IMG/VR virus record: IMGVR_UViG_3300045993_000887 | Location: 1-52,092 of that record | Origin: a virus | Reading direction: 5' to 3' (one strand) | Length of the DNA: 52,092 bases | Part shown: in pieces, positions 2,091-52,092 of the stretch | Layout of the letters: each line of letters opens with the position of its first letter | How positions within the stretch are numbered: position 1 is the first letter of the stretch | Program-made: the position numbers and the translations under genes | Notes under the pieces: generated by a model | The model's input: the letters and a program-made list of their open reading frames with translations, nothing else | Databases searched by the model: none | What the model was told of the DNA's origin: nothing

Positions 2091-2119
2091 AATCTTGTTT
2101 CCTGTGCGCTTTAACTTCT

Positions 2120-2155
2120 TTAATATAAATCCTAACGCGACAAATGTCAAACACT
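2120..2155 (-). promoter_or_regulatory. Conserved sigma70-type promoter cassette, copy A
   Basis: The minus strand reads AGTG-N-TTGACATTT-N5-GTTAGGATTTATATTAA. -35 TTGACA (2150-2145), 17-nt spacer, -10 TATATT (2127-2122). Near-identical cassettes at 47109..47144 and 50749..50784. Confidence 0.6.
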
Positions 2156-2205
2156 TTTTAAAAATACTTTTGCACATATAATAAAATCGTTATCCTGTAA
2201 GGCTT

Positions 2206-3892: not shown

Positions 3893-3894
3893 CC

Positions 3895-4038
3895 ATGAGC
3901 AAGCCAAAAGATTCGCAACCTGAAGTTATATTTTCTCGAAAGGCTGAAAATAATTACAATCTGGAAGATAAAAAGAAGAAGCTAAAAGCGATGAAAGTGA
4001 GTCCTTTAATTATGAAAATGTATGAGGATCGAGGATGA
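3895..4038 (+). CDS. Small hypothetical Lys-rich protein (47 aa, below the ORF-track cutoff)
   Basis: ATG lies 2 nt after the 3892 stop, followed by 47 sense codons. Its TGA overlaps the thyX ATG (ATGA at 4035-4038). Confidence 0.4.
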   Translation: MSKPKDSQPEVIFSRKAENNYNLEDKKKKLKAMKVSPLIMKMYEDRG

Positions 4039-4889: not shown

Positions 4890-7800
4890 ATGGCAAGCAA
4901 CAGCACTGCAACGATTATTTTTAAGGGCGATGACCAGATATCACCCGCAATTAAAGGCGCTACTGCGAGTGTGGCGGGGCTTAGCCAATCGTTTGAGGGC
5001 GTTGATACAGGGGCTAAGCAAGCATCAGATAGCATTAGAGAGAATCTAGTTAAACAAATTGAGGCGGCGCGTCAAAAAGTTTCTGATTTTGCTAAACAAG
5101 GCTTAAAAGTTGAGCAAGGGCAAGCATTAGGAGAATTAAGAAAATTACAAGGGGAGCTAAAAAAACTTGACGCACCTGTAGGGACTAACACTTTAGATCC
5201 CCTTGCGGCATCTGCCAACAAAACGGCTGTCCAAATTAAAACTGAACTTACCAAGTCAATATTGGCTGTAAATCAAGAATTAGCAAAGCTTTCAACCCAG
5301 AAATTAACGCCTGAAGTTCGCCTAAGACAAGATCAATTATTAGGTCAATTATCAGGATTAAAAACTCAATTAAAGGATATTGACAAACTGGTTGTACAGC
5401 CAAAAGTACAGCTAGACCCGCTACAACTCAATGCCATATCGCAAAGTTTTGGGGCGATCGCGGGTAAGCTAACAGAATTAAAAGGATCGGCTGTTGCGGC
5501 GGCGGGTGCGATTTCCGTAGCTGAGAGAAAGCTGTCCACAGTATCAGATGAGTCTGGGAAATTAATCAAGAATTTTGGCGATTTGGCTGCGGCTAACAAA
5601 TTCCAGACCACAACAGCAGAATTAGCAGGTGCATCCTATGAAGTTTTAAGCGCTGGCTTCACCAAAACTGCTGATGTAACTAAAATCCTAGACGCATCAA
5701 CAAAGGGGGCTGTAGGCGGTTTCTCAGACGTAATCACAGTAAGTAAAGCAACCATTTCAGCGCTTAACGCCTATGGACAAGGTGCAGATCAAGCAGCATC
5801 CTTTGTGGACAAATTCGTGTCTGTGCAGCAAAGCGGCTTAATCACGGTTGATCAATATGCTCAACAAATTGCCAGGATTGCACCAACGGCGGCGGCTGCG
5901 GGTCTAAGCCTAGATGAACTTAACGGCGCAATTGCCACTGCTACTGCATCTGGCGTGCCTGTAGAATCAACATTTAGCGGTTTGCGAACGGCGATCGGCG
6001 CAATCCTAAAGCCAAGTTCTGAAGCTGTCACATTATCGAAAGAATTAGGGATTAGCTTTAATGCTCAAGCCCTAAAGACTAAGGGACTAAGCGGCATTCT
6101 TAAGGAATTAAAAACGACTGGCAATGATAGCGCTGATACGCTCCTTAAATTATTTGGCTCGGCTGAGGCATTGGCAGCGATCGCCCCTTCAATTAATAGC
6201 ATCGAAAAATTAGAGGCAAATATTAAAGCAAGTGCCAATAGCGCGGGGCTTGCAGCCACTAATTTTGATAAAGCCGCCGATCCTATTAAAGCTTTTGCAA
6301 ATCAAACTACCGAGGCTCTAGCCGTATTAGGCAAAGATGTCCTAAAGGTGTTTAACCCAGTAATAGGCACTTCCAAGGCTGTTGTACAAGCCTTTTTAGA
6401 ATTGCCACAGCCAGTGCGAGAAGTAATTGCTTTTCTCGTTGGAGGTGGTGCGGCGATCGCAACTACAGGCGCGGCTATTTCTGGATTTTTGGCAATTCTT
6501 AGCCCAACATTAGCAGGGCTATCTGCACTAGGAACGGGCGTTACGGCTGCGATCGGATTCCTAACGGCTGGGCAAGTGGCGCTCGGCACTGCTACAGCCA
6601 CAACTACTGGATTAACGGCTGCTGAAGCTGCGGCTTTTGGCGGTGTGGCTACTGCATCAGGCAGCGCAACGGCGGGCGTAGGAGGACTGACCACAGCTAC
6701 CGCAGGACTAGGCACGGCGGCGGGTATTACGGCGGGGACATTAGGATTGATCGCATTGGCGGCGGTTCCTTTACTGATCATCGGCAAGCAATTTAATGAT
6801 GCATGGGGAACCGATAAAGTTACGGCTGGCTTAAAAGATATGCGTAGGCAGCTAGACGATATCAAAGCAAAAAGGGGGGAATTAGCTAAACCTCAAAAGG
6901 GACAAGATGATGGATTAGGCGGGACTGGAATTAATGAAGGCAATTTTAACGGATTTATAAACCCATTTAATACCAGACAAGACGAACAAAAAAATGTTAT
7001 TCGCTTTAGCGAAAAACAAAATCAGGATGAGTTAAACAAAGTTTATGAAGATGGCGTCTCCATACTCAAAAAGTATGGAGTGGCTAGCGAAGAAGCTGCT
7101 AAAAAAACAAAATTAAGCAAAGAACAGTTAGAAGCATTTACCAAAGATATTGCAGAGAAAAAAGAAGATTTTGATATTGCAATTAACAATTTGCAAAAAC
7201 AAGGCGAAGAAGCTAAAGGTAATCCTATTTTGCAAGGGCAGATTAGACAAAGGATTATTGAATTTTCTAATGCAAAAAAACTATTAGATGACAAGCTTAA
7301 ATTGCAACTCGAAACTAATAAAAAAGTAGAAGCTGCTGAGAAAAGATCGTCAGAAGCCATTGAAGAGATTGCTAAAAAACGGATTGATAAAGAGAAGCAA
7401 AATAATGAGAACCAAGCTCGGCTGCGTGGACGTGATTTTGAGCAAAAAGCAAAAGCAGAAAGTGGCGCTTTTGAAACAAAGTCGCGTGATGATAAGCGAG
7501 TATTTGAAGCACAATTAAATACTGATAAAAAGGCATTTGAAGAAGGGCAAAAAGCTGACAAAAAAGAATTTGAGAAAGGACTTCAAAGCGAGAATAAGCA
7601 GTTTGCTCGCGATCAAAAAGTTGAGCAACAAGCTTTCAATGCTGAAGAAAAAGCTAGTGACAAAGCCTATGAGAGAGAGAAGCAAGCGGCGCAAAGAGTC
7701 TTTGATAAAGAGCAAGAAAAAGCTAAAGAAGCATTTGATAAAAAGCAACGTGACGCAAGTTTAGCATTTGACAAAAGCCAAGATGCTGCTAAAAAAACGG

Positions 7801-17501: not shown

Positions 17502-17750
17502 TCATCTAGCTTTATTTATAGTAAACATAGGCTTTTCTCTATGTTTTGGCTTTTCAGGATTAAGCCTCAATTTTTTAGCCTCTACAGCCTTGATAAGTGC
17601 ATCAAGGCTAACTTCATTACGCTTACCTGTCCAAATGTCCACATAAGCCCAATTGTGGGGACTGAGTAAATGCCAGCCAACATCAAAGCAAGCATCTTTT
17701 GCTGTGGCGTGATCGTCATCAAGTGATTTTAGAGTTTGTAGTTTAAGCAT
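17502..17750 (-). CDS. Hypothetical protein
   Basis: 82-aa ORF overlapping the primase stop by 8 nt. Confidence 0.5.
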   Translation of the reverse strand: MLKLQTLKSLDDDHATAKDACFDVGWHLLSPHNWAYVDIWTGKRNEVSLDALIKAVEAKKLRLNPEKPKHREKPMFTINKAR

Positions 17751-20700
17751 TCTTAATCACCCTCCTAAGCAAATCCACAGCAATGGGTTGCTCGACTGGT
17801 TGCCCATTGCTGATATATGCCATTTTTGAGCCGTAGCGCGTCTCAATCTTGTCGATTGTGTATTCAGTAGTCCACAGGTTTACTTGGCACTCAATAACGA
17901 CAATTTCAGCTACTTCTTTATCATCTATTGCAATGATCACGGTGTCGCCTGTGGTTAGAGGGGATGCTTGATGGGTATCGTCTAGGCAAGTGCTAACCAT
18001 GCTTGAAGTGCTTGCTGTGTCCACATTGTGCGCGCTGGTGGTTAGCTGCCCAGCCAAAACAGGGGTGCTAGATGTAAGGGGATTTACAATACATGTATTT
18101 TGATCATCATTATGTATGTATGTATTACCTGTATGTGTATTATGTGTATATGATAGGTTAGGTAGGATCGTAGCACCTGTATCGCTTACACTGTCTACAT
18201 TTGAGGGGTGGTTAGCACTTAGGTTAGGAGTATTTTGTGAAGTCCCTGCAAGTGGCTCACCGTCTATGTCTTGGGGTTGGCTAGCACTTTGGTTATCATT
18301 TAGTACCCATGAGTAAACGCGCAATGTTGCGCCATCAATCAGGGCTTTGTGGCGCTGATTGTTTTTTGAATAGCCCAAACGGATCAAGCAATTAAGCACA
18401 TCCTTTTGCATAGCATGGGTGTGCTTGCCCTTCTGTGGCTCGATATGGTACAAAAGCTCAGTCGTTGATACTTTATCCCTGTACTCGCAAAACGCCGCTA
18501 CCTGTGGCATCCAAGGGCTATCTGATTGGTATCTGCGGTTATTGTGGTTGCTCGCTTCTTGCTCGACATCAGAGAGCCACCATTCAGCACCTGATTTATA
18601 AAGGCTTACCGCAGCCGCCCAAATTGCATCACGATTTTCTTTTGCAAAATCAGAGTTGATTTTTTTATTAGTTCGCAAAATCCAATAACGCCGATCACCA
18701 GTCGGATCAGTTAAAAAATCATCACGGTTTGAAGTGCCAACAAAAAGGAATTGGCGAGGGCATACTTTTTGCGCTCGCAAATATGCAAATCTTTGGATAT
18801 CAGTTTTAATCGTAATAAAGTTTTTTAGATCGCCCTCGTACCTGGAATTTGTTACTCGATCGATTTCGCCAATCTCACAAATCCACTTGCGATGGAGACG
18901 CATGATGTTGTCTTTGTGAGCTAAATCTTTGTCAAGATTATCGGTAAAGAATGCTTCACTCGTAAGAGCCTCAAAAAACGTTGATTTCTTCGCGCCTTGC
19001 GTGCTTACCAAGCAAAAAACATGGTCAACTTTGGCAACTTTGGGAATTAGCTTCTCAAACTTAGTCAGTGGGTAGTAAACCCTTGCCACAGCAGCAATCA
19101 AAGTCTTCTTCAAGAATGCCTCATACAATGGATTATCAACACCAAAGCACCGCGCCGCAAGCCCATCTAGGATGCTCGTATCATCCCCAATCCTATTGTG
19201 GCAATCTTCCAAATAATCATAAACAGGATGATATTTATTACTCTCTGCAATGACAGCGATCGCATCAATCGCATCATTCTTAGTGATAGTGATATTAATC
19301 TCTTCAGCAAAATAAATCCTAGAAGTATCGATATCAAAAATCGCGCCATCAAGTTCGACTTCCTTGGTGAGCAAATTTAGGCGAAAGCGATCGCTATAAA
19401 ACTGCTTAATCGTCTTGATATTTTGAGCAAGTTCGCAAAGTGCAGAAGCTTTGATTTTGGCTTTTTCAATTTCACGGGTAGTGCGAAGTGCCTCGCGCTC
19501 AATCCGTTCCCTAATCTTCTTTTGGGCTAATTCATAAGCCGCTAAAGTTTTTTTGATTGTGGGAATATCAATCTCTTCTGAATCACTGGGTATAGAATCA
19601 AAAGCCGCTACGATCGGCGGCTCTTGAGATTGGCAAAACTGGTTTAAAATCTCAGTCGGATTGCTCCGATATTTAATCTTTTTGCTGATTAAATAATCTT
19701 TTGTTGCCACTGCCAAGCCCTTGATAATTGGCAACAATGCTGATGGCTTGTCACAGCCAAATTTTACCGCCTCAATATATTTTTTTGGCAGTAAATCCAA
19801 AAGATTTATATCGCTCAAATCATCAACTTTTACAGGAGCTTTGTAGCGTAAATCTTGACTAGCGGATGGGCTAAGAACATATTGCAGTTTTTTAACATGG
19901 GTGATCGCTGACTCATCACCACCACGAATCACGCAAGCGGGTAAGCATGAAGTTGCATCAATAGTTTTTTTAATTCTCTCAATGCGATCACCATCAATCC
20001 CCAGTGCTTCCCCACAATCATTAATGAGAGTGTCTGCACTGCCATTAAAACTAATCGAATTAGCATTAAGCCAATTCTGCCAGCCGTAAAGCTCCTTAGC
20101 AGCCTTGGTTAAGCCTGCGCTGCGATCGCTACTTTCTGGATTGCCTGCAATGATTGATTGAGTAGCAGGCGTGATGCAGTTGAAAAGCTCGATCGCTCCT
20201 TGAGTGATATTTAGTAAAGGTAAGCTAGATTTAATTACTACAGGGGATTGTTTAGGGGATGTGGTAAAAATATTAATTTCTGCCAACGGAATCGGATCGC
20301 CATAATTAATATTTGTATATGCCCCATTGAGGCCAATCGTAGGAGCCATCACAGCATATCTACCCGACCCTAATAATTCCCCAACATGATCGCCCCCTTC
20401 AGTAAGAGCGAAGTTTGTAAAGTCAGCGCCATTCTCGCCACAATCAACTAGCAACCTATAGCCGCCCGACTGGGTCTGCTCTAGCCATCCCTCCTGAGCA
20501 TTTGGGCATATTTGCAACAAAGCTAGATCACACCCCCCTTGCGTGGCAAAATGCTTACGGTCAAGATCAAGCCATCGGTAGCGTTCGTTCCCTAAACTGC
20601 CAATGCCATTCAAGAGATTAGCAAACCACTCCTCAAAATCTAGCTGTGTGGGTAGGGTTCGCTGATAATTCTTGTGTTCAATGGTTTTTGGAAATCCGTT

Positions 20701-20934
20701 GGCTTTCAACAAATAGCTCGGATTCTTGCCAGTGAACTTAGCTTTAAAACTGCCATCAGCTTCGAGAATTGGCTCGTATTTTACTGAGTTATCCCATGCA
20801 TCAGTCGTCTTTTTTGATTGGTGTAAATACTTATGGAATGGGTGAGAAGTATTTGAGGGATCTTGATAAGGAGCGACTGGGATAGGCGACAAGCCTAAAT
20901 CTACCAATCGAGTGATAATCTTTTCGTAATTCAT
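17743..20934 (-). CDS. Primase-helicase: N-terminal Prim-Pol domain plus VirE/D5-type P-loop domain
   Basis: 1063 aa. Prim-Pol-like GLSPIPVAP, TQSGGYRLLVD, GSGRYAVMAPT. P-loop VSTQGAKKSTFFEAL and KWICEIGEID (VirE-family pattern). Low-complexity C-terminal third. Confidence 0.8.
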   Translation of the reverse strand: MNYEKIITRLVDLGLSPIPVAPYQDPSNTSHPFHKYLHQSKKTTDAWDNSVKYEPILEADGSFKAKFTGKNPSYLLKANGFPKTIEHKNYQRTLPTQLDFEEWFANLLNGIGSLGNERYRWLDLDRKHFATQGGCDLALLQICPNAQEGWLEQTQSGGYRLLVDCGENGADFTNFALTEGGDHVGELLGSGRYAVMAPTIGLNGAYTNINYGDPIPLAEINIFTTSPKQSPVVIKSSLPLLNITQGAIELFNCITPATQSIIAGNPESSDRSAGLTKAAKELYGWQNWLNANSISFNGSADTLINDCGEALGIDGDRIERIKKTIDATSCLPACVIRGGDESAITHVKKLQYVLSPSASQDLRYKAPVKVDDLSDINLLDLLPKKYIEAVKFGCDKPSALLPIIKGLAVATKDYLISKKIKYRSNPTEILNQFCQSQEPPIVAAFDSIPSDSEEIDIPTIKKTLAAYELAQKKIRERIEREALRTTREIEKAKIKASALCELAQNIKTIKQFYSDRFRLNLLTKEVELDGAIFDIDTSRIYFAEEINITITKNDAIDAIAVIAESNKYHPVYDYLEDCHNRIGDDTSILDGLAARCFGVDNPLYEAFLKKTLIAAVARVYYPLTKFEKLIPKVAKVDHVFCLVSTQGAKKSTFFEALTSEAFFTDNLDKDLAHKDNIMRLHRKWICEIGEIDRVTNSRYEGDLKNFITIKTDIQRFAYLRAQKVCPRQFLFVGTSNRDDFLTDPTGDRRYWILRTNKKINSDFAKENRDAIWAAAVSLYKSGAEWWLSDVEQEASNHNNRRYQSDSPWMPQVAAFCEYRDKVSTTELLYHIEPQKGKHTHAMQKDVLNCLIRLGYSKNNQRHKALIDGATLRVYSWVLNDNQSASQPQDIDGEPLAGTSQNTPNLSANHPSNVDSVSDTGATILPNLSYTHNTHTGNTYIHNDDQNTCIVNPLTSSTPVLAGQLTTSAHNVDTASTSSMVSTCLDDTHQASPLTTGDTVIIAIDDKEVAEIVVIECQVNLWTTEYTIDKIETRYGSKMAYISNGQPVEQPIAVDLLRRVIKNA
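18111..18295. repeat. Diverged copy of the 41594-41905 iteron region embedded in the primase 3' third
   Basis: TGGTTAGCACTTAGGTTAGG (18209-18228), TGGCTAGCACTTTGGTTA (18278-18295) and TATGTATTACCTGTATG (18119-18135). The last is the reverse complement of CATACAGGTAATACATA, which occurs in the 41740-41765 region. Confidence 0.6.
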
Positions 20935-38458: not shown

Positions 38459-38878
38459 ATGGCACAAAAAAGCGACAATGCAGAAATAGAAAAGCGAGTA
38501 AATAAAGTTTATTCGCTTATTTTGCAATGTCATTCTACTGAAAAAATCGTAGCTTATGCTAGGCAAACGTGGGGCATAAACCGCGCTCAAACGACTAGAT
38601 ATATAAAAAGGGCGCGTGACCAAATGAAGGAGGTTTGCGCGATTGAGAGAGAAGAAGCTTATGCTGAAGAGATGGAATTAAGGCGTGAAATCATCCGTAA
38701 AGCACTTGATGAGAAGAAGTACCAAACAGCATTACAGGCAGCCGACAGCAGGGCAAAACTAAGGGGCTTATTTGATAAATTAGAGCAAGCGATCGATACG
38801 GTGACAGCACATGGTTACGAAGTGTCCGACCCCACTGAAATCACCGAAACACAAAGCGAAAATAGTACGCAGGAATAA
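38459..38878 (+). CDS. Probable terminase small subunit
   Basis: 139 aa. N-terminal HTH-like IVAYARQTWGINRAQTTRYIKRA, then a coiled coil. Lies immediately upstream of and overlapping terL. Confidence 0.45.
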   Translation: MAQKSDNAEIEKRVNKVYSLILQCHSTEKIVAYARQTWGINRAQTTRYIKRARDQMKEVCAIEREEAYAEEMELRREIIRKALDEKKYQTALQAADSRAKLRGLFDKLEQAIDTVTAHGYEVSDPTEITETQSENSTQE

Positions 38879-40502
38879 AAATCAACAAATAGATGTAGAT
38901 ATCAATTGGCAACCAATTCCAGATAGCCCTCAAGAGTTTGCTTTTAATCACCCTGCCGATGAACTTTATGTTGGCGGCGCTAGTGGCGGCGGTAAAACTT
39001 CATTAATTATTGGCACGGCTGGCTATTGCAAAAAAGCTTTAATTTTGCGGCGCGAATTCCCACGCGCTAGAAATATTATTGAAAGCTCACGGCTTATTTT
39101 TGCGCGTGATGTGTCAATTCATGCGAAAGATAGCTATAACGAATCACTTCACCTATGGCGCTTAGCCAATGGCACTACAATCCAGATTGGTGCTTGTCAG
39201 TATGAGAAAGACTGGGTAAAGTTTCAAGGACAGGAGCATGATTTTAAGGCTTTTGATGAGATATGCGAATTTACTGAAAATCAGTATCGTTCTATCAATA
39301 TTTGGAACCGTCACCCAGATCCTAATGTGCGGTGTCGGGTCATTGCCACAGGAAATCCCCCAACGACTGTTGATGGTGAGTGGGTTATGGATTATTGGGG
39401 CGCTTTTGTTGATCCTGATTTTGATGGCGATCGCGCTGAAGAAGGTTCGCTTGTTTGGTATGTGCGGGTAAAAACAGGAGACGATGAGAAAGACTTAGAA
39501 ATAGCCCGTACAAGCTTGGAAGATGTTAGAAAGGCAATTGCTAATAAAACAAAAATAGAGCGCCCTACCTACGAAATAACGCTTGCTACAGGGGATAAAA
39601 AAATATTAGTCGCAAGGTCACGATCATTTATTCGTGCGGGTATTGAAAATAATCCTTACTTAATGGCAACTGGATACGATAAGCAATTGGATGCACTGCC
39701 AGAATTTTTAAGGACGCGATTCAGAGAAGGATTATTTCAGCGTGTAACTGAATCTACTGATCTACAAGTCATCCCCACAGCATGGATTGTGGCGGCTATG
39801 GACAGATGGATTGCTTATATGGGTACTAAGTCGCTCGACTATAGCAACGCCCTGAGCACTTATAGGACTAAAAACCCAATGATGAATATGTCTGCTATGG
39901 GCGTTGATCCATCGAGGGGCGGTGACGATGAAACAGCGATCGCTATTCGGTTTGCTGATTTTATTATGCCACTGCACCTGACCAAGGGTAAGTATGTTGA
40001 GGATGGGGATGCAGTTCGAGACATTATTTATAATCTGAGAATTAGCAACCCGCAAATAAATATCGATGTTGTGGGTGTAGGCAGTAGCCCCTACGACTCA
40101 TGCAAAAAGATGGGATGGAGCGTAGTGGCGATTAATGGGGGCGCTAGTGCCACAGATAGGAATAATAAGCCATTAACCGATCGTACTGGCTTATTACGCT
40201 TCAGAGACATGAACGCGATGCTTGCATGGAAATTAATGGAAGCGCTAGATCCTCAGTACAATCCCACGCTGATGTTACCTCCTGATCCTAAATTAAAAGC
40301 TGAGCTATGCTCTATCAGGCGATCGTCTATTGATGGTGGTGTGGTGTCGATTGAGAGTAAGAAGGAAGTGAAGAAGCGATTAGGGCGATCGCCTGATAGA
40401 GCAGATGCAGTGAAGTATGCCCTATTGCAATCGATTAGTATGTACGCCCCTAATCCTAAGAGTCAGGCGGCGGCTTTGGGTAAGGTTAGCGAGTGGGGTT
40501 AA
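38811..40502 (+). CDS. Terminase large subunit
   Basis: 563 aa. Walker A VGGASGGGKTS, Walker B AFDEICEF, nuclease-domain MGVDPSRGGDDETAIAI. The only canonical in-frame start before Walker A is ATG 38811. Confidence 0.85.
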   Translation: MVTKCPTPLKSPKHKAKIVRRNKNQQIDVDINWQPIPDSPQEFAFNHPADELYVGGASGGGKTSLIIGTAGYCKKALILRREFPRARNIIESSRLIFARDVSIHAKDSYNESLHLWRLANGTTIQIGACQYEKDWVKFQGQEHDFKAFDEICEFTENQYRSINIWNRHPDPNVRCRVIATGNPPTTVDGEWVMDYWGAFVDPDFDGDRAEEGSLVWYVRVKTGDDEKDLEIARTSLEDVRKAIANKTKIERPTYEITLATGDKKILVARSRSFIRAGIENNPYLMATGYDKQLDALPEFLRTRFREGLFQRVTESTDLQVIPTAWIVAAMDRWIAYMGTKSLDYSNALSTYRTKNPMMNMSAMGVDPSRGGDDETAIAIRFADFIMPLHLTKGKYVEDGDAVRDIIYNLRISNPQINIDVVGVGSSPYDSCKKMGWSVVAINGGASATDRNNKPLTDRTGLLRFRDMNAMLAWKLMEALDPQYNPTLMLPPDPKLKAELCSIRRSSIDGGVVSIESKKEVKKRLGRSPDRADAVKYALLQSISMYAPNPKSQAAALGKVSEWG

Positions 40503-40660: not shown

Positions 40661-40669
40661 TTTTTTCTT

Positions 40670-41018
40670 CCTTTTGCTCGACTTTTGCCCTAACAGTATT
40701 TGCGTTACCCGCCCCTAACCGCGCGGAGGTTACTGTTTAAGGGGCATTCCCTCAGTTTACGTCTTGCGGGTAGACGGTTGATTTAAGTGGGTTCTCCACT
40801 ACCTCTTAACTCTTACACTTTCGACGAGGTGGTATTTCGTAGGTTTAACGAGTTTTTACTTTCTCCTCGCATCACGTATTTATAGTGGGAATTACCACCC
40901 CGATTTAGTAGCTCCTAACCTAGACTTCGGTGTCTCGAAGGACGTGATGTTTGCCTCAACCCGCCAGTTGCAGTTACCTGCCTTAAGATGCCTATCGGCT
41001 TCCTTTCCTTCGCTTATG
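40670..41018 (-). ncRNA. Candidate structured ncRNA or long structured 5' leader (unclassified)
   Basis: No ORF of 60 aa or more in any frame across 40661-41227. A consensus promoter lies directly upstream on the minus strand. There are at least five local hairpins (40716-40732, 40760-40776, 40786-40800, 40885-40898, 40925-40940) plus the long-range pair 40692-40698/40731-40737. Confidence 0.4.
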
Positions 41019-41024
41019 TATATA

Positions 41025-41053
41025 AATATAGCACTCTATATGGCGTGTGTCAA
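41025..41053 (-). promoter_or_regulatory. Consensus sigma70-type promoter pointing into the ORF-free region
   Basis: The minus strand reads TTGACA (41053-41048), 17 nt, TATATT (41030-41025). Confidence 0.55.
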
Positions 41054-41077
41054 CCCCCCTAGCAAAATCGCTCAAAT

Positions 41078-41229
41078 GTATACAGTGCATAGCTTTCAGG
41101 AGCTTTTTTTAGTAAAACTTTAGAAATATAATTTTAAATTATTTTACTGATATTTTGCTAAACGTATACAGTGTGGGGGTTTCGCGCGGTAAATTATTTT
41201 AATTTCGCTAATATAATTTTAAATTATTT
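41078..41229. repeat. Two direct repeat units, about 85-86 bp apart
   Basis: GTATACAGTG at 41078 and 41164. The exact 20-mer AATATAATTTTAAATTATTT at 41125-41144 and 41210-41229. Confidence 0.8.
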
Positions 41230-41548
41230 ATTTTTTAGCCTTTTTGCGCTTTTCCTGTTTGCGTTTTTGGGCGGCGCGATATCCTTCAGGATCGTTTAAT
41301 TTCCACCGTGCTGTTAGTTCGGCTTGTGTAAGCTTGTGATCGCCCATCAATTGTCCACCTTCTGGGCGATTACTATCAGTACAGGTGAAGTTAGGCGTGT
41401 GGCGTCTGCATCGGTACTGTTTTGCGCCCGATGGCAAGTTTTTATTAAATGTGGTGTGTTTGCCACAAATAGTTTTGATAATTTCTCCGTCAACCACGGA
41501 TTTAAAAACGTGTTGGCAGATCGGATTTGCAAGATTAGGTTTTGGCAT
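41228..41548 (-). CDS. Zinc-ribbon protein with basic C-terminal tail
   Basis: 106 aa. C-x-H...C-x-K-H...QYRCRRH cluster. Tail KRKQEKRKKAKK. Confidence 0.55.
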   Translation of the reverse strand: MPKPNLANPICQHVFKSVVDGEIIKTICGKHTTFNKNLPSGAKQYRCRRHTPNFTCTDSNRPEGGQLMGDHKLTQAELTARWKLNDPEGYRAAQKRKQEKRKKAKK

Positions 41549-41593
41549 AGTTTAAAAATTATACCATACTTTGCATAGGTGCTACAGAATAGT

Positions 41594-41926
41594 CCTAACC
41601 AAGTGCTAACCAGCCTTATGATCTATGCCACATAAGAAGTGTAGGCTATTCGTTAAAATCTCCTAACCAAGTGCTAACCACCCACTAACCACTATGTGTA
41701 GCAGGGGTCTAGCCATATTGCCTATCTAATACCTACATTACACATACATACAGGTAATACATATACACATATATTCATTAGTGTTTTTACGTGTATCTGT
41801 TTTGTATAGGATTTAAAACAGCATTTTTGGCTAGGCGGCTAACCAACACGGCACAAAAGCGGCTCTGTGTATTGCTTGTAGGGGTGGTTAGCACTTGGTT
41901 AGCTATGGTTAGCTCAATCACCCTCT
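41594..41926. repeat. Iteron cluster, candidate origin of replication
   Basis: CCTAACCAAGTGCTAACCA at 41594-41612 and 41662-41680. Exact inverted 18-mer TGGTTAGCACTTGGTTAG at 41885-41902. Extra GGTTAGC/CTAACCA copies up to about 41926. An AT-rich ACATACATACAGGTAATACATATACACATATATTC block lies between them. Confidence 0.5.
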
Positions 41927-41931
41927 AACCA

Positions 41932-41979
41932 GCAATAAAGAAGCCCCTGATTAAATTTAATCAGGGGCTTCTTTATTGC
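41932..41979. repeat. Perfect 48-bp palindrome
   Basis: GCAATAAAGAAGCCCCTGATTAAA / TTTAATCAGGGGCTTCTTTATTGC with no spacer. Confidence 0.9.
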
Positions 41980-41992
41980 CAAAAAAGCATAC

Positions 41993-42004
41993 TTGCTTTA
42001 TTTT
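41993..42004 (+). promoter_or_regulatory. Conserved 12-mer TTGCTTTATTTT, copy 4
   Basis: Exact 12-mer 27 nt upstream of ATG 42032, at the head of the capsid-gene operon. Confidence 0.35.
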
Positions 42005-42031
42005 CTAGCCTTAAGCAAAGAAATATTTTTT

Positions 42032-42703
42032 ATGGATTTAGATTTAGGTTGCGTTAGCCAATATAAAAATTGTGTCAGGGGTAAAGCCTGTGGCAATACT
42101 TGCATCAATAAAGATAGAGCTTGCAAACCTAAACCAAATGCTAAAGCTAATGCTGTTGGGGACTTATTGGCTAATCCTGATAATTTGGAGAAGGGGGCGG
42201 AGAGTTTTGACGGTTTACTAGCTGACGATTTTCTTCCGCAAAACAATAGTTTAACTGATAAATTTCCGCCTATATATACTGGGCCTTTAGAAAGATTTAC
42301 TAAAACTAGCTTTGTTGGCGATGAGCATGATATTGAAACTGATATTAAATCCGCAAAAAATCCGCCAATTGATCCGCCTCCATCAGTTCAGAATGTAAAT
42401 ATATTTGTAGATTCAGGATTTAGTAAATCTAATATAGAGGGGAAAGATGGGCTGAAGTTAGCTCTAGCTAGTCGTGATCATGTTCGGGAATATGTAAAGC
42501 AAGCCCCTGAAGGGACTGTTTTGATGAATACGCCTTTTTCGGGTGATGGATTTGGAGATCAAAGAGCAAAACTTTATGAAAAAGCGGGGTTTTCGCCACC
42601 TGACAAAGATGAGCATATGTATTCAATCGTTTCAGAGGGGAAAAATATCCCCATTACTCTAGATGAAATAAAAGCGCTTAAAGAAGCAGGGCATACTAAA
42701 TGA
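42032..42703 (+). CDS. Hypothetical protein: Cys-rich N-terminus, possible GNAT-like C-terminus
   Basis: The ORF track starts at TTG 41993; ATG 42032 is more likely. CVSQYKNCVRGKACGNTCINKDRAC. The C-terminal QRAKLYEKAGF resembles the GNAT motif. Confidence 0.5.
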   Translation: MDLDLGCVSQYKNCVRGKACGNTCINKDRACKPKPNAKANAVGDLLANPDNLEKGAESFDGLLADDFLPQNNSLTDKFPPIYTGPLERFTKTSFVGDEHDIETDIKSAKNPPIDPPPSVQNVNIFVDSGFSKSNIEGKDGLKLALASRDHVREYVKQAPEGTVLMNTPFSGDGFGDQRAKLYEKAGFSPPDKDEHMYSIVSEGKNIPITLDEIKALKEAGHTK

Positions 42704-42852
42704 AAATTACAGACGCTCAATTAACAAAAATCACACAAATGATGGAATCAGAATCAGAAATTATTGATTGGATTGATTCTCAAAAAAATGCACAAGATAT
42801 TTATGACTGGTTTAACGAATTTATGCAGGGGTATGTGGTCAAAAAAGCATGA
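42700..42852 (+). CDS. Small hypothetical acidic protein (50 aa, below the ORF-track cutoff)
   Basis: MKITDAQLTKITQMMESESEIIDWIDSQKNAQDIYDWFNEFMQGYVVKKA. ATGA junctions at both ends. Confidence 0.45.
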   Translation: MKITDAQLTKITQMMESESEIIDWIDSQKNAQDIYDWFNEFMQGYVVKKA

Positions 42853-44324
42853 AAAAACTAACTCAGGAAGAAGTAAAGCTACAAATCCTAAACGGACTTA
42901 TAAACCCTGTTTACACCAATAATGGTGCTAGAACTTTACGTGCTAATGAGATTCGTAGTTACGAAATTCAGCCTAATAAAATTTTTGGCATTTTCGTTGC
43001 TGAAGAAATGGAAGACGGATTCATTAAAGAAAAACTTTTTGACTTTGACTTAACACGAAAAAAAGAAGGCGATGATTGGCAGCTAACTTATGACTACCAT
43101 GTTGCCAAAAATGCTGCTTTGCTTTATTTTGCTGAAGATATGAAAAAGCAAGCCCATCGTTATTACCGCGACAGCAATACGGCACTGGATGAGTGTGGCG
43201 TATTGACGCGCCCCGCTTTGCTATTGACTGAAGGCGAAATAATCGACAGTGAAGGGCAAAAAACTACATATACCCGTGAGCTAATTGATGCGATTGTGGC
43301 AACCTCAAACGAGTATGCTCTCACTCAAGAAATTAAACTTTTTACTGATCATGAGTACAGCCAAAAGTCTCGCATTGGATCAGTGACTGGCAAATTTACG
43401 GCGCGTGAAATTACTGATGTAGACCTGGCTGAAAATAGTGATCGTGAGTCAGTTGGCAAATATGCAATTTTTAATGATGGCATTGAGATTCGCGATAAAA
43501 AGGCGATTGAAAAATATCACTCAAAATTATTAAAAGAATTATCTATAGGCATAATTCTGCAAAAAGATACAGGCACAATTTTTGAAGTGTCTGCTGTGCC
43601 TTGGGGTGCTGTGGCAGAGGCTCACATATATTCGAGAGAATCTGATATAAAGCAGTACGCTTATACTTTTGATTCGCAAATGCGGCGAACGCAAGTAGAA
43701 CCAAATCTTGATGCTATGGATGCAACTCAAAAAGGCTTTTCCGCTTTTATGGGTTGCATAGGCAACATAGCTAATGCCACCGATAGCGAACTCCCTAAAA
43801 GTCGCTACAAGTGCGTAAAAAATGCTGTCACGGCTTTGTCGGATCATCTTATGGGTATCCATGCTCCTAAGCCCGATGAGGACGTGGCAGATGTACCAAT
43901 TATCCAAATGGAAAAACCAATGACTGAAGAAACTAAAACATATAGTGCTGCTGATTTTGAGGCTTTGCAATCGCAATTAGCCAAGGTGCAAAAAGATAAC
44001 CAAGATACTCGCAAATTTTCAGCACTGAAAGATCGGGCGATCGCTCTTAACAGTCAGTCTTGCAAGCTCAGTACCGCTAAATATAAAGCGCTTTTTGAAG
44101 GTGACAAAGCTTTTGAAAATTATCAGGCGGCGATCGCTGGCGATCCTCTTGAAGAGTTTTTAAACTATGTGGACGCGAATATCACCGTTGATCCTAAACT
44201 TGCACCTTCAGTCTATGGCGCTACTCCTATTCCTAATCAGGAAGTACCTGAACGCCCTGCTGACGAAGTTGCTTCCATCAAGGAACGCGCCGCTTCTATT
44301 CCCGTGACCAAAGTTAGTTATTAA
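42849..44324 (+). CDS. Putative prohead protease / scaffolding protein
   Basis: 491 aa. LFTDHEYSQKSRIGSVTG resembles the His region of prohead serine proteases. C-terminal coiled coil. Lies upstream of the capsid gene. Confidence 0.4.
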   Translation: MKKLTQEEVKLQILNGLINPVYTNNGARTLRANEIRSYEIQPNKIFGIFVAEEMEDGFIKEKLFDFDLTRKKEGDDWQLTYDYHVAKNAALLYFAEDMKKQAHRYYRDSNTALDECGVLTRPALLLTEGEIIDSEGQKTTYTRELIDAIVATSNEYALTQEIKLFTDHEYSQKSRIGSVTGKFTAREITDVDLAENSDRESVGKYAIFNDGIEIRDKKAIEKYHSKLLKELSIGIILQKDTGTIFEVSAVPWGAVAEAHIYSRESDIKQYAYTFDSQMRRTQVEPNLDAMDATQKGFSAFMGCIGNIANATDSELPKSRYKCVKNAVTALSDHLMGIHAPKPDEDVADVPIIQMEKPMTEETKTYSAADFEALQSQLAKVQKDNQDTRKFSALKDRAIALNSQSCKLSTAKYKALFEGDKAFENYQAAIAGDPLEEFLNYVDANITVDPKLAPSVYGATPIPNQEVPERPADEVASIKERAASIPVTKVSY

Positions 44325-45247: not shown

Positions 45248-46363
45248 ATGACTCAATCAATTTATGAATTTTTAGAACGTAGAGAAAATAAACAGGTATG
45301 GCGCGAGCAAGTCGATCAAACTGATTGGCGCTTGCTTAATCCTGTCGATCGCTCTCGATTAGATCGCTTAATTCCTGCTACTTCCTACCCATCCCGATCA
45401 ATTCTAATTAATCGGATGGTCAATCACCGCCCGACCATCGCGACTATTATTGCTGAAGACGCAGAAGTACCACCAAGCCGCCCCCAAATGATTCTGAATG
45501 AAGAGCTTTTGGGCAATTGCAAGATCGGTAAAAAGTATCAGTGGAACGAACGCGATCAAAAGCAATTATTGGAATTGCAACAAGGCAATTTAGCCCCTGC
45601 GACTAAGATGGCTATTGAAAATTATTTCTTTGGCACAATTGGCGATCTAGTCCCTGCGATTTATGATAAGTCGATGCGATTGGCAATGGAAATTGCACTT
45701 TCTGGAAGTACCGATTTTACTGACCCAATCAGTAAGGCTAAATTTAAAATCAGCTACTCGACTACATCAGGACATATCGCGACTGCACTCACAGGTGCTG
45801 ACCTTTGGAGCGCTCCAACTACTGCTACACCATTAGCAGGGCTAGAAGCTCACGCTGAGGTTGTTTACAATACTTTGGGCAAATTCCCTGATAACATCTC
45901 AATGCACCGCGCCCAATTGCGACAAGTAGCAGCTACCAATGAAGCCAAGATTGCATGGCTTACCCGTACTGGTGGTAGTGGCACAACCTCGCAAGATCTA
46001 ACAGGTGTATTTCTGAGCGATATGCAAGTTAAAGAATTGATCAGTGAGCGTATCAATCCTAATACAGGGGCTGAAGTTATTATTAATGATGCTAAGTACT
46101 CTGAAGAGCTAGCTAATGGCACAATCAGTGATAAGTTCTTTCTCGCAGTTGGCGCTAATACTGGTTATTATCAATTTGGCTGGGATGGCTATATTGAGCG
46201 TGGCTTTGTTCCTACGATTGAGAATCGGTTAGCATCTGGAATATATGTAGTCAATGGACAGAAAATCGATGATGTTCCACATAGATACTGGACTACAGCC
46301 GTCGCGAACTTCGTACCTGTGGTTCGCGACCCTCGCTATATCGCGGCTCGAAAAGTAGCTTAG
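45248..46363 (+). CDS. Probable major capsid protein
   Basis: 371 aa. Assigned by position after the protease/scaffold and decoration-like genes, and by the strong terminator that follows. Confidence 0.5.
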   Translation: MTQSIYEFLERRENKQVWREQVDQTDWRLLNPVDRSRLDRLIPATSYPSRSILINRMVNHRPTIATIIAEDAEVPPSRPQMILNEELLGNCKIGKKYQWNERDQKQLLELQQGNLAPATKMAIENYFFGTIGDLVPAIYDKSMRLAMEIALSGSTDFTDPISKAKFKISYSTTSGHIATALTGADLWSAPTTATPLAGLEAHAEVVYNTLGKFPDNISMHRAQLRQVAATNEAKIAWLTRTGGSGTTSQDLTGVFLSDMQVKELISERINPNTGAEVIINDAKYSEELANGTISDKFFLAVGANTGYYQFGWDGYIERGFVPTIENRLASGIYVVNGQKIDDVPHRYWTTAVANFVPVVRDPRYIAARKVA

Positions 46364-47081: not shown

Positions 47082-47108
47082 TGCTTTGTTCCTTTGCTCT
47101 TGACCTCT

Positions 47109-47144
47109 TTAATATAAATCCTAACAGAACAAATGTCAATCACT
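47109..47144 (-). promoter_or_regulatory. Conserved sigma70-type promoter cassette, copy B
   Basis: -35 TTGACA (47139-47134), 17 nt, -10 TATATT (47116-47111). Shares TTAATATAAATCCTAAC-N5-AAATGTCAA-N-CACT with copies A and C. Confidence 0.6.
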
Positions 47145-47210
47145 AATTCAAAACTATATTTAATTCATACATCTGAGCTAAAATAAAACCACATTTACCC
47201 GCGATCGCCC

Positions 47211-50723: not shown

Positions 50724-50748
50724 TTGTTTGTCCTCTTGCTTGATGTAC

Positions 50749-50784
50749 TTAATATAAATCCTAACGAAATAAATGTCAAGCACT
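50749..50784 (-). promoter_or_regulatory. Conserved sigma70-type promoter cassette, copy C
   Basis: -35 TTGACA (50779-50774), 17 nt, -10 TATATT (50756-50751). Same cassette as copies A and B. Confidence 0.6.
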
Positions 50785-50820
50785 TTTTTAAAATAGTTTG
50801 CAATTGCCAAAAACACTCAC

Positions 50821-51257: not shown

Positions 51258-52052
51258 ATGGCAAAGAAATTATATACAGGCATTAAGAGCCTAACCCAAG
51301 TGTGGCTCAAAACCGCTACAGGCACACCAGTAAACGATAAAATCTTGCTGTTGCCTACCCCATCTAGTGGTACATATGCTACAGGTGTGGAAGAGTTTGA
51401 AATTGAAGCAGTCGATCAATGCACAGGTGAGAAGTTTGTAGCTGATACCTATGTGGTAAAGCGTGCGCCATCATTTAAGCTCACCTATGGCTCTAAGCAG
51501 AAACAATTGCTAAGCGCTTTCTTTGGCTTGGCATTAGCCAACGGAACTCGCGACACGGCGATCGTCAAAACGTTGGAAGTCACACAGGCTACGCAAGGCG
51601 CAACTATTAGTGGTTACAGTGGCTTTGGTGTAGCGGCTGACCAGACTCTCTCAGAAGCTTATTACCTCGATGACAATGGCACATCGGTTAAGTTGACTAA
51701 GCAAACTCATGCAGCATTCAACCCTGCTACACCGCTTAGTTGGAGCCAAGGGGCTAATCTTGAGCTTAATTTCTCGGCTGATCTTGTAACCGATCGTAGA
51801 TATGTTACTTACTATGTCCCCTATAGCTCGACTAATACCGATTATTTGACGGCTACAACTCAAGCCAATTACGCCGCCGATCTGTTTTTTATCGATACCG
51901 ATGGCAAAGTTGGACATTTCTTATTCCCCTCAATTACCAGCAACTTGACTGAGAATAAAGAATTTGAGTTCGGCGGCGGTACGATCGACTTAAACTTCAG
52001 GGTAACGGGTGAAGTTTATCTCAGATACCCTAATCGCTTGGCAACGTGCTAA
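51258..52052 (+). CDS. Putative major tail (tube) protein
   Basis: 264 aa, Thr/Ser/Gly-rich. Assigned by position only. Followed, across the circular junction, by the 104..159 terminator. Confidence 0.4.
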   Translation: MAKKLYTGIKSLTQVWLKTATGTPVNDKILLLPTPSSGTYATGVEEFEIEAVDQCTGEKFVADTYVVKRAPSFKLTYGSKQKQLLSAFFGLALANGTRDTAIVKTLEVTQATQGATISGYSGFGVAADQTLSEAYYLDDNGTSVKLTKQTHAAFNPATPLSWSQGANLELNFSADLVTDRRYVTYYVPYSSTNTDYLTATTQANYAADLFFIDTDGKVGHFLFPSITSNLTENKEFEFGGGTIDLNFRVTGEVYLRYPNRLATC

Positions 52053-52092
52053 TTTTGTGTATCTGACGAGAATAAGCAACACAAAAGCACCC
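51966..52092. repeat. Terminal overlap: exact copy of 1..127
   Basis: See feature 1..127. Confidence 0.95.

What the first reader, a model, noticed from the sequence alone, without database searches (positions are those of the whole stretch)
41549..41931. Iteron-rich, origin-like intergenic region with a diverged second copy inside the primase gene
Between the divergent genes 41228..41548 (-) and 42032..42703 (+), the 19-mer CCTAACCAAGTGCTAACCA occurs twice in direct orientation (41594, 41662). Its 18-nt core occurs once as an exact inverted copy (41885-41902). Further GGTTAGC/CTAACCA units and an AT-rich ACATACATACAGGTAATACATATACACATATATTC block lie between.

The reverse complement of primase-gene positions 18111-18230 aligns to 41660-41775. 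The exact shared blocks are CTCCTAACC, AAGTGCTAACCACCC and CATACAGGTAATACATA. A further degenerate unit lies at 18278-18295. The replication gene therefore carries a second copy of the same sites in inverted orientation, in its low-complexity C-terminal third.

Rep genes containing or duplicating their own binding sites are known. Examples are ori-lambda inside gene O, and the P4 ori plus crr sites bound by the alpha primase-helicase. The same TCCTAACC core also appears at 40913-40920, and TCCTAAC appears in the spacer of the three early promoter cassettes. That could mean one protein couples replication and early transcription, but this link is weak.
Basis: partly seen in the sequence, partly recalled or inferred. 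Interest (0 to 1): 0.65.

Follow-up and report, generated by a model that had tools for sequence, protein, structure and literature searches.

The report
Duplicated phage replication origin, one copy in-gene
An uncultured cyanobacterial phage carries two copies of a ~340-base replication-origin-like module, one inside its own primase-helicase gene and one among its head genes, an arrangement already known from phages SPP1 and P4 but here tied to an unrelated replication protein family shared with Nostoc plasmids.

Summary
A colinear ~340-nt module occurs twice in inverted orientation. It has two clusters of direct CTAACCA repeats, a 25-28% GC core, one more direct repeat and then inverted repeats. 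One copy lies at 41594-41931 between genes. The other lies at about 17952-18295 inside the primase-helicase gene, translated as a predicted disordered linker just after a winged-helix-like domain.

Comparative evidence points to a DNA-level function tied to the replication protein:
- A related 52.8-kb phage has both copies at the same two places.
- In six primase genes the linker has 43% amino-acid identity but 67% third-codon-position identity, against 43% in another variable region (p = 3e-11).
- Other lineages keep the architecture with different repeats (CTAACTCA, GGTGGATCA, GGTGGAACA, TTACCTCA).
- In four complete Nostoc plasmids the in-gene cluster is the only cluster of its repeat.
- pCC7120delta also has a second, extragenic copy.

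The in-gene copy is the family hallmark and the likely origin. The intergenic copy is facultative: a second origin or an auxiliary initiator-binding site. A packaging-site role is unlikely, because four of six related terminase modules lack it.

The closest analogues are SPP1 oriL/oriR and P4 ori/crr. This is a new member of a known kind. Binding and firing are untested.

The parts
41594..41931 (+). Intergenic origin-like module, complete copy: repeat clusters A and B, AT-rich core, single direct repeat, three inverted repeats, last direct repeat.
41594..41612 (+). Repeat cluster A: two CTAACCA cores 11 nt apart (first exact 19-mer).
41662..41691 (+). Repeat cluster B: three CTAACCA cores 11 nt apart (second exact 19-mer plus CCCACTAACCA), preceded by the conserved TTCGTTAAAATCTC.
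41720..41820 (.). AT-rich core (25-28% GC), candidate DNA-unwinding element.
41838..41845 (+). Single direct repeat GCTAACCA between the AT-rich core and the inverted repeats.
41885..41913 (-). Three inverted repeats (TGGTTAGC read on the + strand) spaced 11 and 10 nt; an exact inverted copy of the 18-nt core.
41924..41931 (+). Last direct repeat TCTAACCA; its counterpart lies at 17952-17958 in the gene copy.
41932..41979 (.). Perfect 24+24 palindrome with flanking A and T runs: a bidirectional terminator-like hairpin that closes the module. An equivalent hairpin follows the module in the relative (L007 about 4263-4310).
17952..18295 (-). In-gene origin-like module, colinear with 41594-41931 and translated as primase residues about 880-995.
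18276..18295 (-). In-gene cluster A' (GATAACCAAAGTGCTAGCCA; cores 12 nt apart).
18209..18230 (-). In-gene cluster B' (CTCCTAACCTAAGTGCTAACCA; the 19-mer with one extra base, cores 12 nt apart).
18080..18160 (.). In-gene AT-rich core (27% GC), sharing CATACAGGTAATACATA with the intergenic copy.
17992..17999 (+). In-gene inverted repeat (sense-strand ATGGTTAGCACTTG, read as M-V-S-T-C).
17743..20934 (-). Primase-helicase gene (1063 aa). The N-terminal third resembles cyanobacterial prim-pol / CyRepA1-type plasmid replication proteins. The VapE-like helicase core is aa 584-803.
18301..18507 (-). Winged-helix-like domain (aa about 810-878) directly upstream of the repeat-bearing linker; candidate repeat-binding domain.
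   Evidence: analogy to P4 alpha and pRN1 ORF904 (PMC2777425)
41228..41548 (-). Flanking 106-aa Cys-rich gene with no family match. A homologue exists in L008 without the module, so it is not strictly linked to it.
42032..42703 (+). Flanking 223-aa gene with no family match, downstream of the terminator.

Best explanation
The ~340-nt module is an iteron-type replication origin belonging to the phage's VapE-type primase-helicase. Iterons are short repeated protein-binding sites.

The conserved copy lies inside the primase-helicase gene, in the stretch that encodes a disordered linker just after a winged-helix domain. The inferred sequence of events is as follows. The initiator, most likely through that winged-helix domain, binds the direct and inverted CTAACCA repeats that flank the AT-rich core. 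It melts the core, loads its own helicase ring and primes synthesis.

The intergenic copy at 41594-41931 is a duplicated, non-coding version of the same module. It has more and better repeats at about one helical turn (11 nt), and it is closed off from the head genes by a bidirectional terminator. It is bound by the same protein. It acts either as a second origin or as an auxiliary site, for example a P4 crr-like enhancer, an SPP1 oriR-like fork barrier or a titration site.

Shown here: the anatomy, the conservation, the DNA-level constraint, the change of repeat specificity between lineages, and the co-occurrence with this Rep family.

Inferred: which protein binds, that replication starts there, and the role of the second copy.
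For: 1. Non-random repeats and colinear duplication within the window.

2. The related phage SRR25727132_131201 has both copies at the same two loci, again inverted and about 21 kb apart. Its primase nt 2663-2844 matches the gap after the terminase gene at 72% over 195 nt, E = 9e-21.

3. DNA-level constraint in the linker of six primase genes. Amino-acid identity is 0.43 but third-position identity is 0.67. Third-position identity is 0.43 in another variable region (Mann-Whitney p = 3e-11) and 0.58 in the conserved rest of the gene (p = 0.001).

4. In L087 the 8-mer CTAACTCA recurs at 10-12 nt spacing and is read in two frames (L-T-H against P/D/T-N-S). It is therefore a DNA repeat and not a peptide repeat. 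Twelve of 15 hits fall in 348 nt.

5. The same architecture carries different repeats elsewhere: GGTGGATCA in L082, GGTGGAACA in pCC7120delta and three other Nostoc plasmids, a CTAGAACA-type repeat in pNsp_l, and TTACCTCA in pCC7120zeta.

6. In four complete 34-49-kb Nostoc plasmids, the repeat found in the VapE gene's 3' part clusters nowhere else in the replicon.

7. pCC7120delta independently has an extragenic second copy, 84-86% identical over about 340 nt.

8. Repeat cores are conserved between copies at 0.67-0.84, against about 0.50 for other columns. The spacer between cores co-varies within genomes: AAGTG in both window copies, GCCTCT in both copies of the relative.

9. The linker is predicted disordered (pLDDT about 30). 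It follows a confidently modelled helix-helix-helix plus beta-hairpin domain (pLDDT 86) whose best structural matches are winged-helix DNA binders and PriRep1.

10. The intergenic copy has no open reading frame across it, yet it holds the best repeats.
Against: There are no experimental data: no binding assay, no coverage or marker-frequency profile, and no origin mapping.

GC skew tracks gene orientation and marks neither locus.

The Foldseek E-values for the winged-helix domain are weak (0.05-0.5), and no covariation between that domain and repeat type could be shown.

The intergenic copy is absent from four of six related terminase-to-head-gene intervals. It is therefore dispensable for this head module. 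The claim that those four genomes lack this primase family rests only on the contig lengths listed.

Overall identity between the in-gene and intergenic copies is only 0.49-0.63. The alignment is anchored on the repeats, which inflates the contrast.
Confidence: 0.72

Rival explanations
1. Both loci are initiator-binding arrays, but only the in-gene copy fires. The intergenic copy is a purely auxiliary site. It could be a cis enhancer that loops to the origin (P4 crr-like), a fork barrier that switches theta to concatemer-producing replication (the model proposed for SPP1 oriR), or a titration or handcuffing locus that limits initiation (P1 incA-like).
For: - The intergenic copy is facultative among relatives, and among plasmids only pCC7120delta has one.
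- It has more and tighter repeats than the in-gene copy, as expected for a high-affinity sink or barrier.
- It sits in a variable segment that interrupts the late genes and is closed by a terminator. SPP1 oriR has a similar setting (PMC6316719, PMC3485210).
Against: It retains the AT-rich core and the full flanking architecture of the in-gene copy. A simple binding sink would not need these. Orientation and distance differ between the phages (inverted, 21-23 kb) and pCC7120delta (direct, 1.6 kb), so no single looping geometry is conserved.
Confidence: 0.35
2. The repeats are bound not by the primase-helicase but by another factor. One candidate is host DnaA, since CTAACCACC and TGATCCACC loosely resemble the DnaA box TTATCCACA. 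Another is a small phage DNA-binding protein. That factor then recruits the primase-helicase.
For: The resemblance to a DnaA box is 6-7 of 9 positions by my own inspection of the sequences. No direct evidence identifies the binder. No covariation between the winged-helix sequence and the repeat type could be extracted.
Against: The repeat sequence differs sharply between lineages whose relatives all come from cyanobacterial sources (CTAACCA, CTAACTCA, GGTGGAACA, TTACCTCA). This fits replicon-specific initiators better than a universal host protein. The arrays always travel with the VapE gene itself. P4 alpha and pRN1 ORF904 have the same primase, helicase and winged-helix layout, with the winged helix implicated in origin recognition (PMC2777425).
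Confidence: 0.12
3. The intergenic copy is a non-functional relic of a partial duplication of the 3' part of the primase gene, decaying neutrally.
For: It is homologous to coding sequence, has lost the reading frame, and is only about 56% identical overall to the gene copy. It sits in a variable, insertion-rich segment.
Against: - Its repeats are more numerous and more perfect than those of the gene copy: two exact 19-mers and an exact inverted 18-mer, with ten CTAACCA against four.
- The duplication ends exactly at the outermost repeats in the window, in the relative and in pCC7120delta.
- The copy is retained at the same locus in a phage whose primase is 73% identical. Repeat cores stay at 0.84 identity while the other positions are at 0.50.
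Confidence: 0.07
4. The region is the packaging recognition site (pac or cos) used by the adjacent terminase.
For: It lies 1.1 kb downstream of the large terminase gene (38811-40502). Repeats with inverted symmetry are common in terminase-binding sites.
Against: Four related genomes have terminase genes of the same family and the same head genes, one with 76% identity to the window's large terminase. All four lack the module at this locus. The module instead follows the primase family, including plasmids that have no terminase at all.
Confidence: 0.03
5. The duplicate works at the RNA level. A minus-strand transcript across 41931-41594, for example the 5' leader of the 106-aa gene, would be antisense to the linker part of the primase mRNA and could regulate it.
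For: The copies are inverted, so a minus-strand transcript of the intergenic copy is complementary to primase mRNA over exact stretches of 15-17 nt. A weak promoter-like site lies on the minus strand at 41982..41954.
Against: The conserved features are short repeats in both orientations at helical-turn spacing plus an AT-rich core. These are typical of protein-binding DNA and not of RNA pairing. pCC7120delta has its two copies in direct orientation. Four plasmids have no second copy at all. No Rfam family matches above threshold.
Confidence: 0.04

Closest known systems
Bacillus phage SPP1 oriL and oriR, bound by the origin-binding protein gp38
   Same: - One origin copy (oriL) lies inside the initiator's own gene.
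- A second copy (oriR) lies in a non-coding segment of accessory genes, bracketed by transcription signals, that interrupts the head-assembly genes.
- Both copies combine direct repeats with an AT-rich unwinding element.
- One protein binds both (PMC6316719, PMC3485210).

The window matches all the anatomical points.
   Different: The initiator is unrelated. SPP1 gp38 is a replisome organizer that works with a separate loader and a DnaB-type helicase. Here the initiator is a single VapE-type primase-helicase. The copies are about 12-13 kb apart in SPP1, against 23 kb and inverted here. Binding and firing are demonstrated for SPP1 and untested here.
Satellite phage P4: alpha primase-helicase with ori and crr
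   Same: [quoted passage not shown] From memory, not checked here: alpha binds short repeats (TGTTCACC) in two separate loci, ori and the cis replication region crr. The plasmid members of the present family use a very similar repeat, TGTTCCACC.
   Different: P4's primase domain is DnaG-like, whereas here it is prim-pol-like by homologue annotation. From memory, neither P4 locus lies inside the alpha reading frame. No sequence homology to alpha was detected.
Lambda ori inside gene O, and other in-gene origins such as N15 repA (from memory)
   Same: The repeats and the AT-rich region are embedded in the part of the initiator gene that encodes an inter-domain linker, so the DNA function dictates the peptide.
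   Different: Lambda has a single copy and an unrelated O protein. There is no second extragenic copy.
pRN1 ORF904-type archaeal plasmid replicases
   Same: The layout is prim-pol, then superfamily-3 helicase, then winged helix, with conservation dropping right after the winged helix (PMC2777425). The same drop occurs here after the YSWVL motif.
   Different: The pRN1 origin lies downstream of the gene (PMC4234260 abstract), not inside it. The host domain is different, and no repeat duplication is reported.
VapE-type Rep genes of Nostoc plasmids (pCC7120delta, pCC7120zeta, pCENA543d, pNsp_l, pTCL26-01_D and _E)
   Same: They are homologous over the helicase-to-linker region at about 30% identity. 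They carry the same in-gene repeat, AT-rich core and inverted-repeat module in the last ~500 nt of the gene. pCC7120delta also has an extragenic duplicate.
   Different: The repeat sequences differ. These are plasmids, not phages. The duplicate in pCC7120delta is direct and only 1.6 kb away. My searches found no description of these modules in the literature.

Membership tests
Iteron-type replication origin (functional class) | Multiple copies of a short repeat, far more than chance, clustered in a few hundred bases | tested here: met
   CTAACCA occurs 19 times against 4.8 expected, with 10 copies in 338 nt. The 19-mer gives 4 matches against 0.03 expected.
Iteron-type replication origin (functional class) | An adjacent AT-rich DNA-unwinding region | tested here: met
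   25-28% GC at 41720-41819 and 27% at 18080-18159, against a 41% genome mean.
Iteron-type replication origin (functional class) | Repeat specificity co-evolves with the cognate replication protein, while the architecture is conserved across relatives | tested here: met
   Six repeat types sit at the same position in homologous Rep genes.
Iteron-type replication origin (functional class) | Specific binding by the initiator, and replication starting at the site | not testable with these tools
   This needs gel shift or footprinting, marker-frequency sequencing, or a minimal-replicon test.
SPP1-like dual origin (oriL in the initiator gene plus oriR among the late genes) | One copy inside the coding sequence of the initiator gene | tested here: met
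   17952-18295 lies within the open reading frame 17743-20934. DNA-level constraint is shown there.
SPP1-like dual origin (oriL in the initiator gene plus oriR among the late genes) | A second, similarly organised copy in a non-coding segment within the virion-assembly genes | tested here: met
   41594-41931 lies between the large terminase gene and the head genes and is followed by a terminator.
SPP1-like dual origin (oriL in the initiator gene plus oriR among the late genes) | An initiator homologous to SPP1 gp38 | tested here: not met
   Pfam reports only VapE-like_dom and DUF5906, and the PDB sequence search reports only PriRep1/VapE. The similarity to SPP1 is therefore functional and architectural, not family membership.
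P4 alpha-type primase-helicase initiators | [quoted passage not shown] | tested here: inconclusive
   The VapE helicase core is clear. The prim-pol assignment rests only on annotated homologues. The winged-helix model is confident (pLDDT 86), but the structural matches have E = 0.05-0.5.
P4 alpha-type primase-helicase initiators | Sequence homology to P4 alpha (DnaG-type primase, D5_N and Primase_Cte domains) | tested here: not met
   The window protein has no such Pfam hit at E <= 1. Only distant homologues carry PF08706 or PF08707.
Terminase recognition site (pac or cos) | Conserved together with the terminase genes among related phages | tested here: not met
   The module is absent from L008, L009, L010 and L086, which carry terminase genes of the same family.

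The most novel reading that the evidence does not exclude
The whole VapE-type Rep family of cyanobacterial plasmids and phages keeps its origin inside the gene, in the linker that follows the winged-helix domain. The protein therefore encodes its own landing pad, and part of its peptide sequence is a by-product of DNA repeats.

Some replicons have repeatedly copied this module to a non-coding site to build a two-site system: this phage, its 52.8-kb relative and pCC7120delta. In the phages that system would coordinate replication mode with head-gene expression and packaging, as a convergent analogue of the switch proposed for SPP1 oriL and oriR.

If true, this gives predicted replication origins for model Nostoc plasmids. 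It also gives a natural set of matched initiator and repeat specificities.
Probability: 0.3. Interest if true: 0.65.

Novelty: new member of a known kind. Interest (0 to 1): 0.52.

Why it matters
Replication origins of cyanophages and of most cyanobacterial plasmids are unmapped. This gives a concrete, testable origin prediction for an uncultured cyanophage lineage. By extension it does the same for VapE-type plasmids of the model organism Nostoc PCC 7120 and its relatives, which is useful for building shuttle vectors.

It also shows the SPP1/P4-style two-site origin logic arising with an unrelated initiator.

Finally, it is a clean example of a coding sequence whose evolution is driven by an overlapping DNA element. 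Third codon positions are more conserved than the amino acids, and the same repeat is read in two frames. Gene annotators and selection analyses would otherwise misread this pattern.

Tried and rejected
- Nucleotide search of 41000-43000 against cultured phages found no match.
- Rfam at gathering thresholds and a tRNA scan of the window found nothing. The permissive Rfam scan gave only sub-threshold hits driven by the terminator hairpin.
- GC skew follows gene orientation and is not informative.
- Exact-pattern scans for the repeat in IMG/VR found two chance hits in unrelated genes (L003, L004) and then none.
- The single metagenome scan returned 71 loci.
- The genome-collection scan with the primase alignment returned only L082. 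The alignment-based IMG/VR scan found nothing.
- P0002 could not be located on any contig.
- I could not fetch the terminase side of the second relative (L005 contig, 53.4 kb), nor the primase side of L008, L009, L010 and L086. Whether the intergenic copy co-occurs with the primase type therefore rests on contig lengths listed.
- NCBIfam and relaxed Pfam scans of the flanking proteins and the primase termini gave nothing.
- The first structure model (aa 789-1063) was too poor for a fold search.
- The CyRepA1 literature does not define a repeat-type origin.
- The idea that TCCTAAC in the promoter cassettes is a repeat copy was rejected.
- Large-scale recombination between the two copies was rejected. 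Identity is about 56% and the longest exact match is 18 nt.

Full report
**Setting**

The window is 52,092 nt with 41% GC, and its two ends are identical over 127 nt. It is therefore most likely a complete circular or circularly permuted phage genome. It has no nucleotide match among cultured phages. Its closest cultured large terminases are those of Planktothrix phage PaV-LD and Aphanizomenon phage CL131, at 36% identity.

The reported region lies between the large terminase gene (38811-40502, PHROG 2) and the head genes. The major head protein is 45248-46363, PHROG 29. The region is flanked by two genes without any family match.

The "primase" is a 1063-aa protein with a VapE-like helicase core at aa 584-803 (PF05272, E = 3e-59; PDB relative PriRep1). 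Its N-terminal third is about 40% identical to cyanobacterial plasmid proteins annotated as prim-pol or CyRepA1 family.

**Observation**

- The exact 19-mer occurs at 41594 and 41662.
- The inverted 18-mer lies at 41885-41902.
- Further CTAACCA units are present: 19 in the window against 4.8 expected, with ten in 41595-41931 and four in 17952-18215.
- The AT-rich block is present, at 25-28% GC.
- The shared blocks with the primase gene are present.

The homology is more extensive than reported. The two loci are colinear over about 340 nt. The order is:
1. Cluster A, two cores.
2. A spacer of about 50 nt.
3. Cluster B, preceded by AAAATCTCC.
4. The AT-rich core, containing CATACAGGTAATACATA.
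5. One direct repeat.
6. The inverted repeats.
7. A final CCCTCTAACCA.

In the gene the cores are 12 nt apart, which keeps the reading frame. Between genes they are 11 nt apart, about one helical turn.

The intergenic copy is immediately followed by a perfect 24+24 palindrome flanked by A and T runs, which looks like a bidirectional terminator.

**Relatives**

The primase family has about 20 close members in metagenomes and metagenome-assembled genomes.

One relative is a 52.8-kb contig (Logan SRR25727132_131201) for which I obtained both the primase locus (L006) and the terminase locus (L007). Its primase linker aligns with the gene-free gap after the terminase gene at 72% over 195 nt, E = 9e-21. 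Reading the sequences shows the whole module in both places, followed by a terminator hairpin in the intergenic copy. The two copies are again inverted, and about 21 kb apart.

Within each genome the two copies share variants that the other genome lacks. The spacer between cores is AAGTG in both window copies and GCCTCT in both copies of the relative. The relative's intergenic copy is closest to its own gene copy (0.63 against 0.49-0.56). Repeat-core columns are 0.67-0.84 identical between copies, against about 0.50 elsewhere. This contrast is partly inflated, because the alignment is anchored on the repeats.

**Is the in-gene copy a DNA element or just a low-complexity peptide?**

Three tests say it is DNA.

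1. Codon positions. I made a codon alignment of six primase genes: the window, L005, L006, L083, L084 and L085. The linker (aa 880-990) has amino-acid identity 0.43 but third-position identity 0.67. That is higher than its first and second positions (0.62, 0.67). It is also higher than third positions in another variable region (0.43; Mann-Whitney p = 3e-11) and in the well-conserved rest of the gene (0.58; p = 0.001).

2. Reading frames. In L087 (62% identical primase) the repeat is CTAACTCA. Twelve of 15 hits lie in 348 nt of the linker. Neighbouring copies at 10-11 nt spacing are read in different frames, giving L-T-H in one and P/D/T-N-S in the other.

3. Change of repeat. In L082 (59% identical) the same positions hold TTAGGTGGATCA in two pairs, followed by inverted copies. 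Ten of 15 hits fall in the linker against 2.6 expected.

The architecture is therefore kept while the repeat sequence changes. This is the behaviour of replicon-specific initiator sites.

**Plasmids**

The helicase-to-linker part is about 30% identical to VapE proteins of Nostoc plasmids.
- pCC7120delta carries GGTGGAACA repeats in the last ~500 nt of its VapE gene (L088 3673-4012). It also carries a second, extragenic copy 1.6 kb downstream (5289-5615), 84-86% identical over about 340 nt, whose similarity ends at the outermost repeats.
- Four complete Nostoc plasmids of 34-49 kb each have a single cluster of the repeat that dominates their VapE gene's 3' part. That cluster lies inside the gene. 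Its orientation pattern is four direct, two inverted, one direct and three inverted repeats in pCENA543d, close variants of that in the two TCL26-01 plasmids, and a different seven-repeat pattern in pNsp_l.
- The 5.6-kb pCC7120zeta has TTACCTCA repeats in the 3' part of its VapE-like reading frame.

The in-gene module is thus the hallmark of the family. In complete replicons it is the only cluster of its own repeat, which makes it the best origin candidate. The extragenic duplicate is facultative and has arisen or been kept in at least three replicons.

**The intergenic copy**

Six terminase-to-head-gene intervals were sampled: the window, L007, L008, L009, L010 and L086. Only the window and L007 carry the module. 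These are the two genomes known to encode the CTAACCA-type primase.

None of the primase-family hits comes from contigs with the lengths of the other four. This suggests, indirectly, that those phages use another replication module.

This pattern argues against a packaging-site role, because the terminases are of the same family (one is 76% identical) while the module is absent. It fits a tie to the replication protein instead.

The interval itself is a variable, insertion-rich segment. In different relatives it holds a Bro-N domain gene, a Rho_N-like gene and other small genes.

**Candidate binding domain**

A structure model of aa 789-1063 gives confident helices up to about aa 852. The linker is very low in confidence (pLDDT about 30), consistent with disorder.

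A second model of aa 760-880 is confident (mean pLDDT 86). It shows three helices followed by a long beta-hairpin. Its best PDB matches are winged-helix DNA binders (TFIIE, Zur/Fur, MarR, BlaI) and the PriRep1-DNA complex, but the E-values are only 0.05-0.5.

P4 alpha and pRN1 ORF904 have the same order of primase, superfamily-3 helicase and winged helix, with conservation dropping right after the winged helix (PMC2777425). I therefore infer, but have not shown, that this domain reads the repeats.

**Comparison with known systems**

The best analogue is SPP1.
- oriL lies within gene 38, the gene of the origin-binding protein.
- oriR lies in a non-coding segment of accessory genes, bracketed by transcription signals, that interrupts the head-assembly genes.
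- Both consist of direct repeats plus an AT-rich unwinding element.
- gp38 binds both.
- oriR-bound gp38 is proposed to stall the fork and trigger the switch to concatemer synthesis (PMC6316719, PMC3485210).

The window reproduces this anatomy with an unrelated initiator.

Both are apt as functional analogies. Homology to them was tested and not found.

My searches found no description of repeat-type origins in cyanophages or in these Nostoc plasmids.

**Verdict**

The promoter link is dropped.

The mechanism is well supported by comparative data but experimentally untested. That mechanism is initiator binding to repeats flanking an AT-rich core, with a second copy serving as an extra origin or auxiliary site.

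This is a new member of a known kind. It has practical value for origin prediction in cyanobacterial replicons.

Noticed in passing
window 40661-41227: About 570 nt next to the terminase gene have no plausible reading frame. The stretch carries a strong minus-strand promoter-like site (41053..41025, TTGACA-17-TATATT with TG). It also has a sub-threshold Rfam hit to an HDV-like ribozyme at 40677-40745 on the minus strand (28 bits against a gathering score of 44). Parts of the stretch are conserved and duplicated in relative L008 (4210-4263 / 4317-4370 and 4686-4728 / 5182-5224). It may be a non-coding RNA cassette.
   Followed up: partly
window 2100-2165, 47090-47155, 50730-50795: Three copies of a roughly 35-nt cassette, CTTTAATATAAATCCTAACnnnACAAATGTCAAnCACT. 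On the minus strand this reads as TTGACA-17-TATATT. It is probably a family of phage promoters with a conserved spacer, and it is not related to the origin repeats.
   Followed up: partly
window 1-127 and 51966-52092: The two ends of the window are identical over 127 nt. This suggests an assembly of a circular or terminally redundant genome of about 51,965 nt.
   Followed up: no
L088 (pCC7120delta) 3673-4012 and 5289-5615: The model-organism plasmid pCC7120delta has the same kind of duplicated module: in-gene plus extragenic, 84-86% identical, in direct orientation. The annotated 56-aa 'hypothetical protein' at L088 5229-5399 overlaps the extragenic copy and may be a spurious gene call.
   Followed up: partly
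window 17743-17990 (primase aa about 990-1063): The extreme C-terminal domain of the window primase and of P0002 (about 80 aa) differs from the RPVT...NIVDNTSG...VRVRVE domain of most relatives. The repeats stay the same, which points to a domain swap downstream of the origin-bearing linker.
   Followed up: no
L082 15790-16460: The distant relative with GGTGGATCA repeats (a cyanobacterial metagenome-assembled genome, contig JANODY010000060) encodes a serine recombinase or resolvase near the primase. That element may be a plasmid or a temperate phage.
   Followed up: no
L008 12721-12757; L086 10833-10869: Above-threshold Rfam abiF RNA motifs lie in two related phages downstream of the Mu-F-like head gene. 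No such hit occurs in the window. tRNA genes occur in L010 (13249-13321) and L086 (11733-11807).
   Followed up: no
L010 (Phormidium tenue JACJQY010000008, 150.9 kb contig): A head module 67% identical to the window's lies on a 151-kb cyanobacterial genome contig. That hints that relatives can exist as prophages or co-assembled episomes.
   Followed up: no
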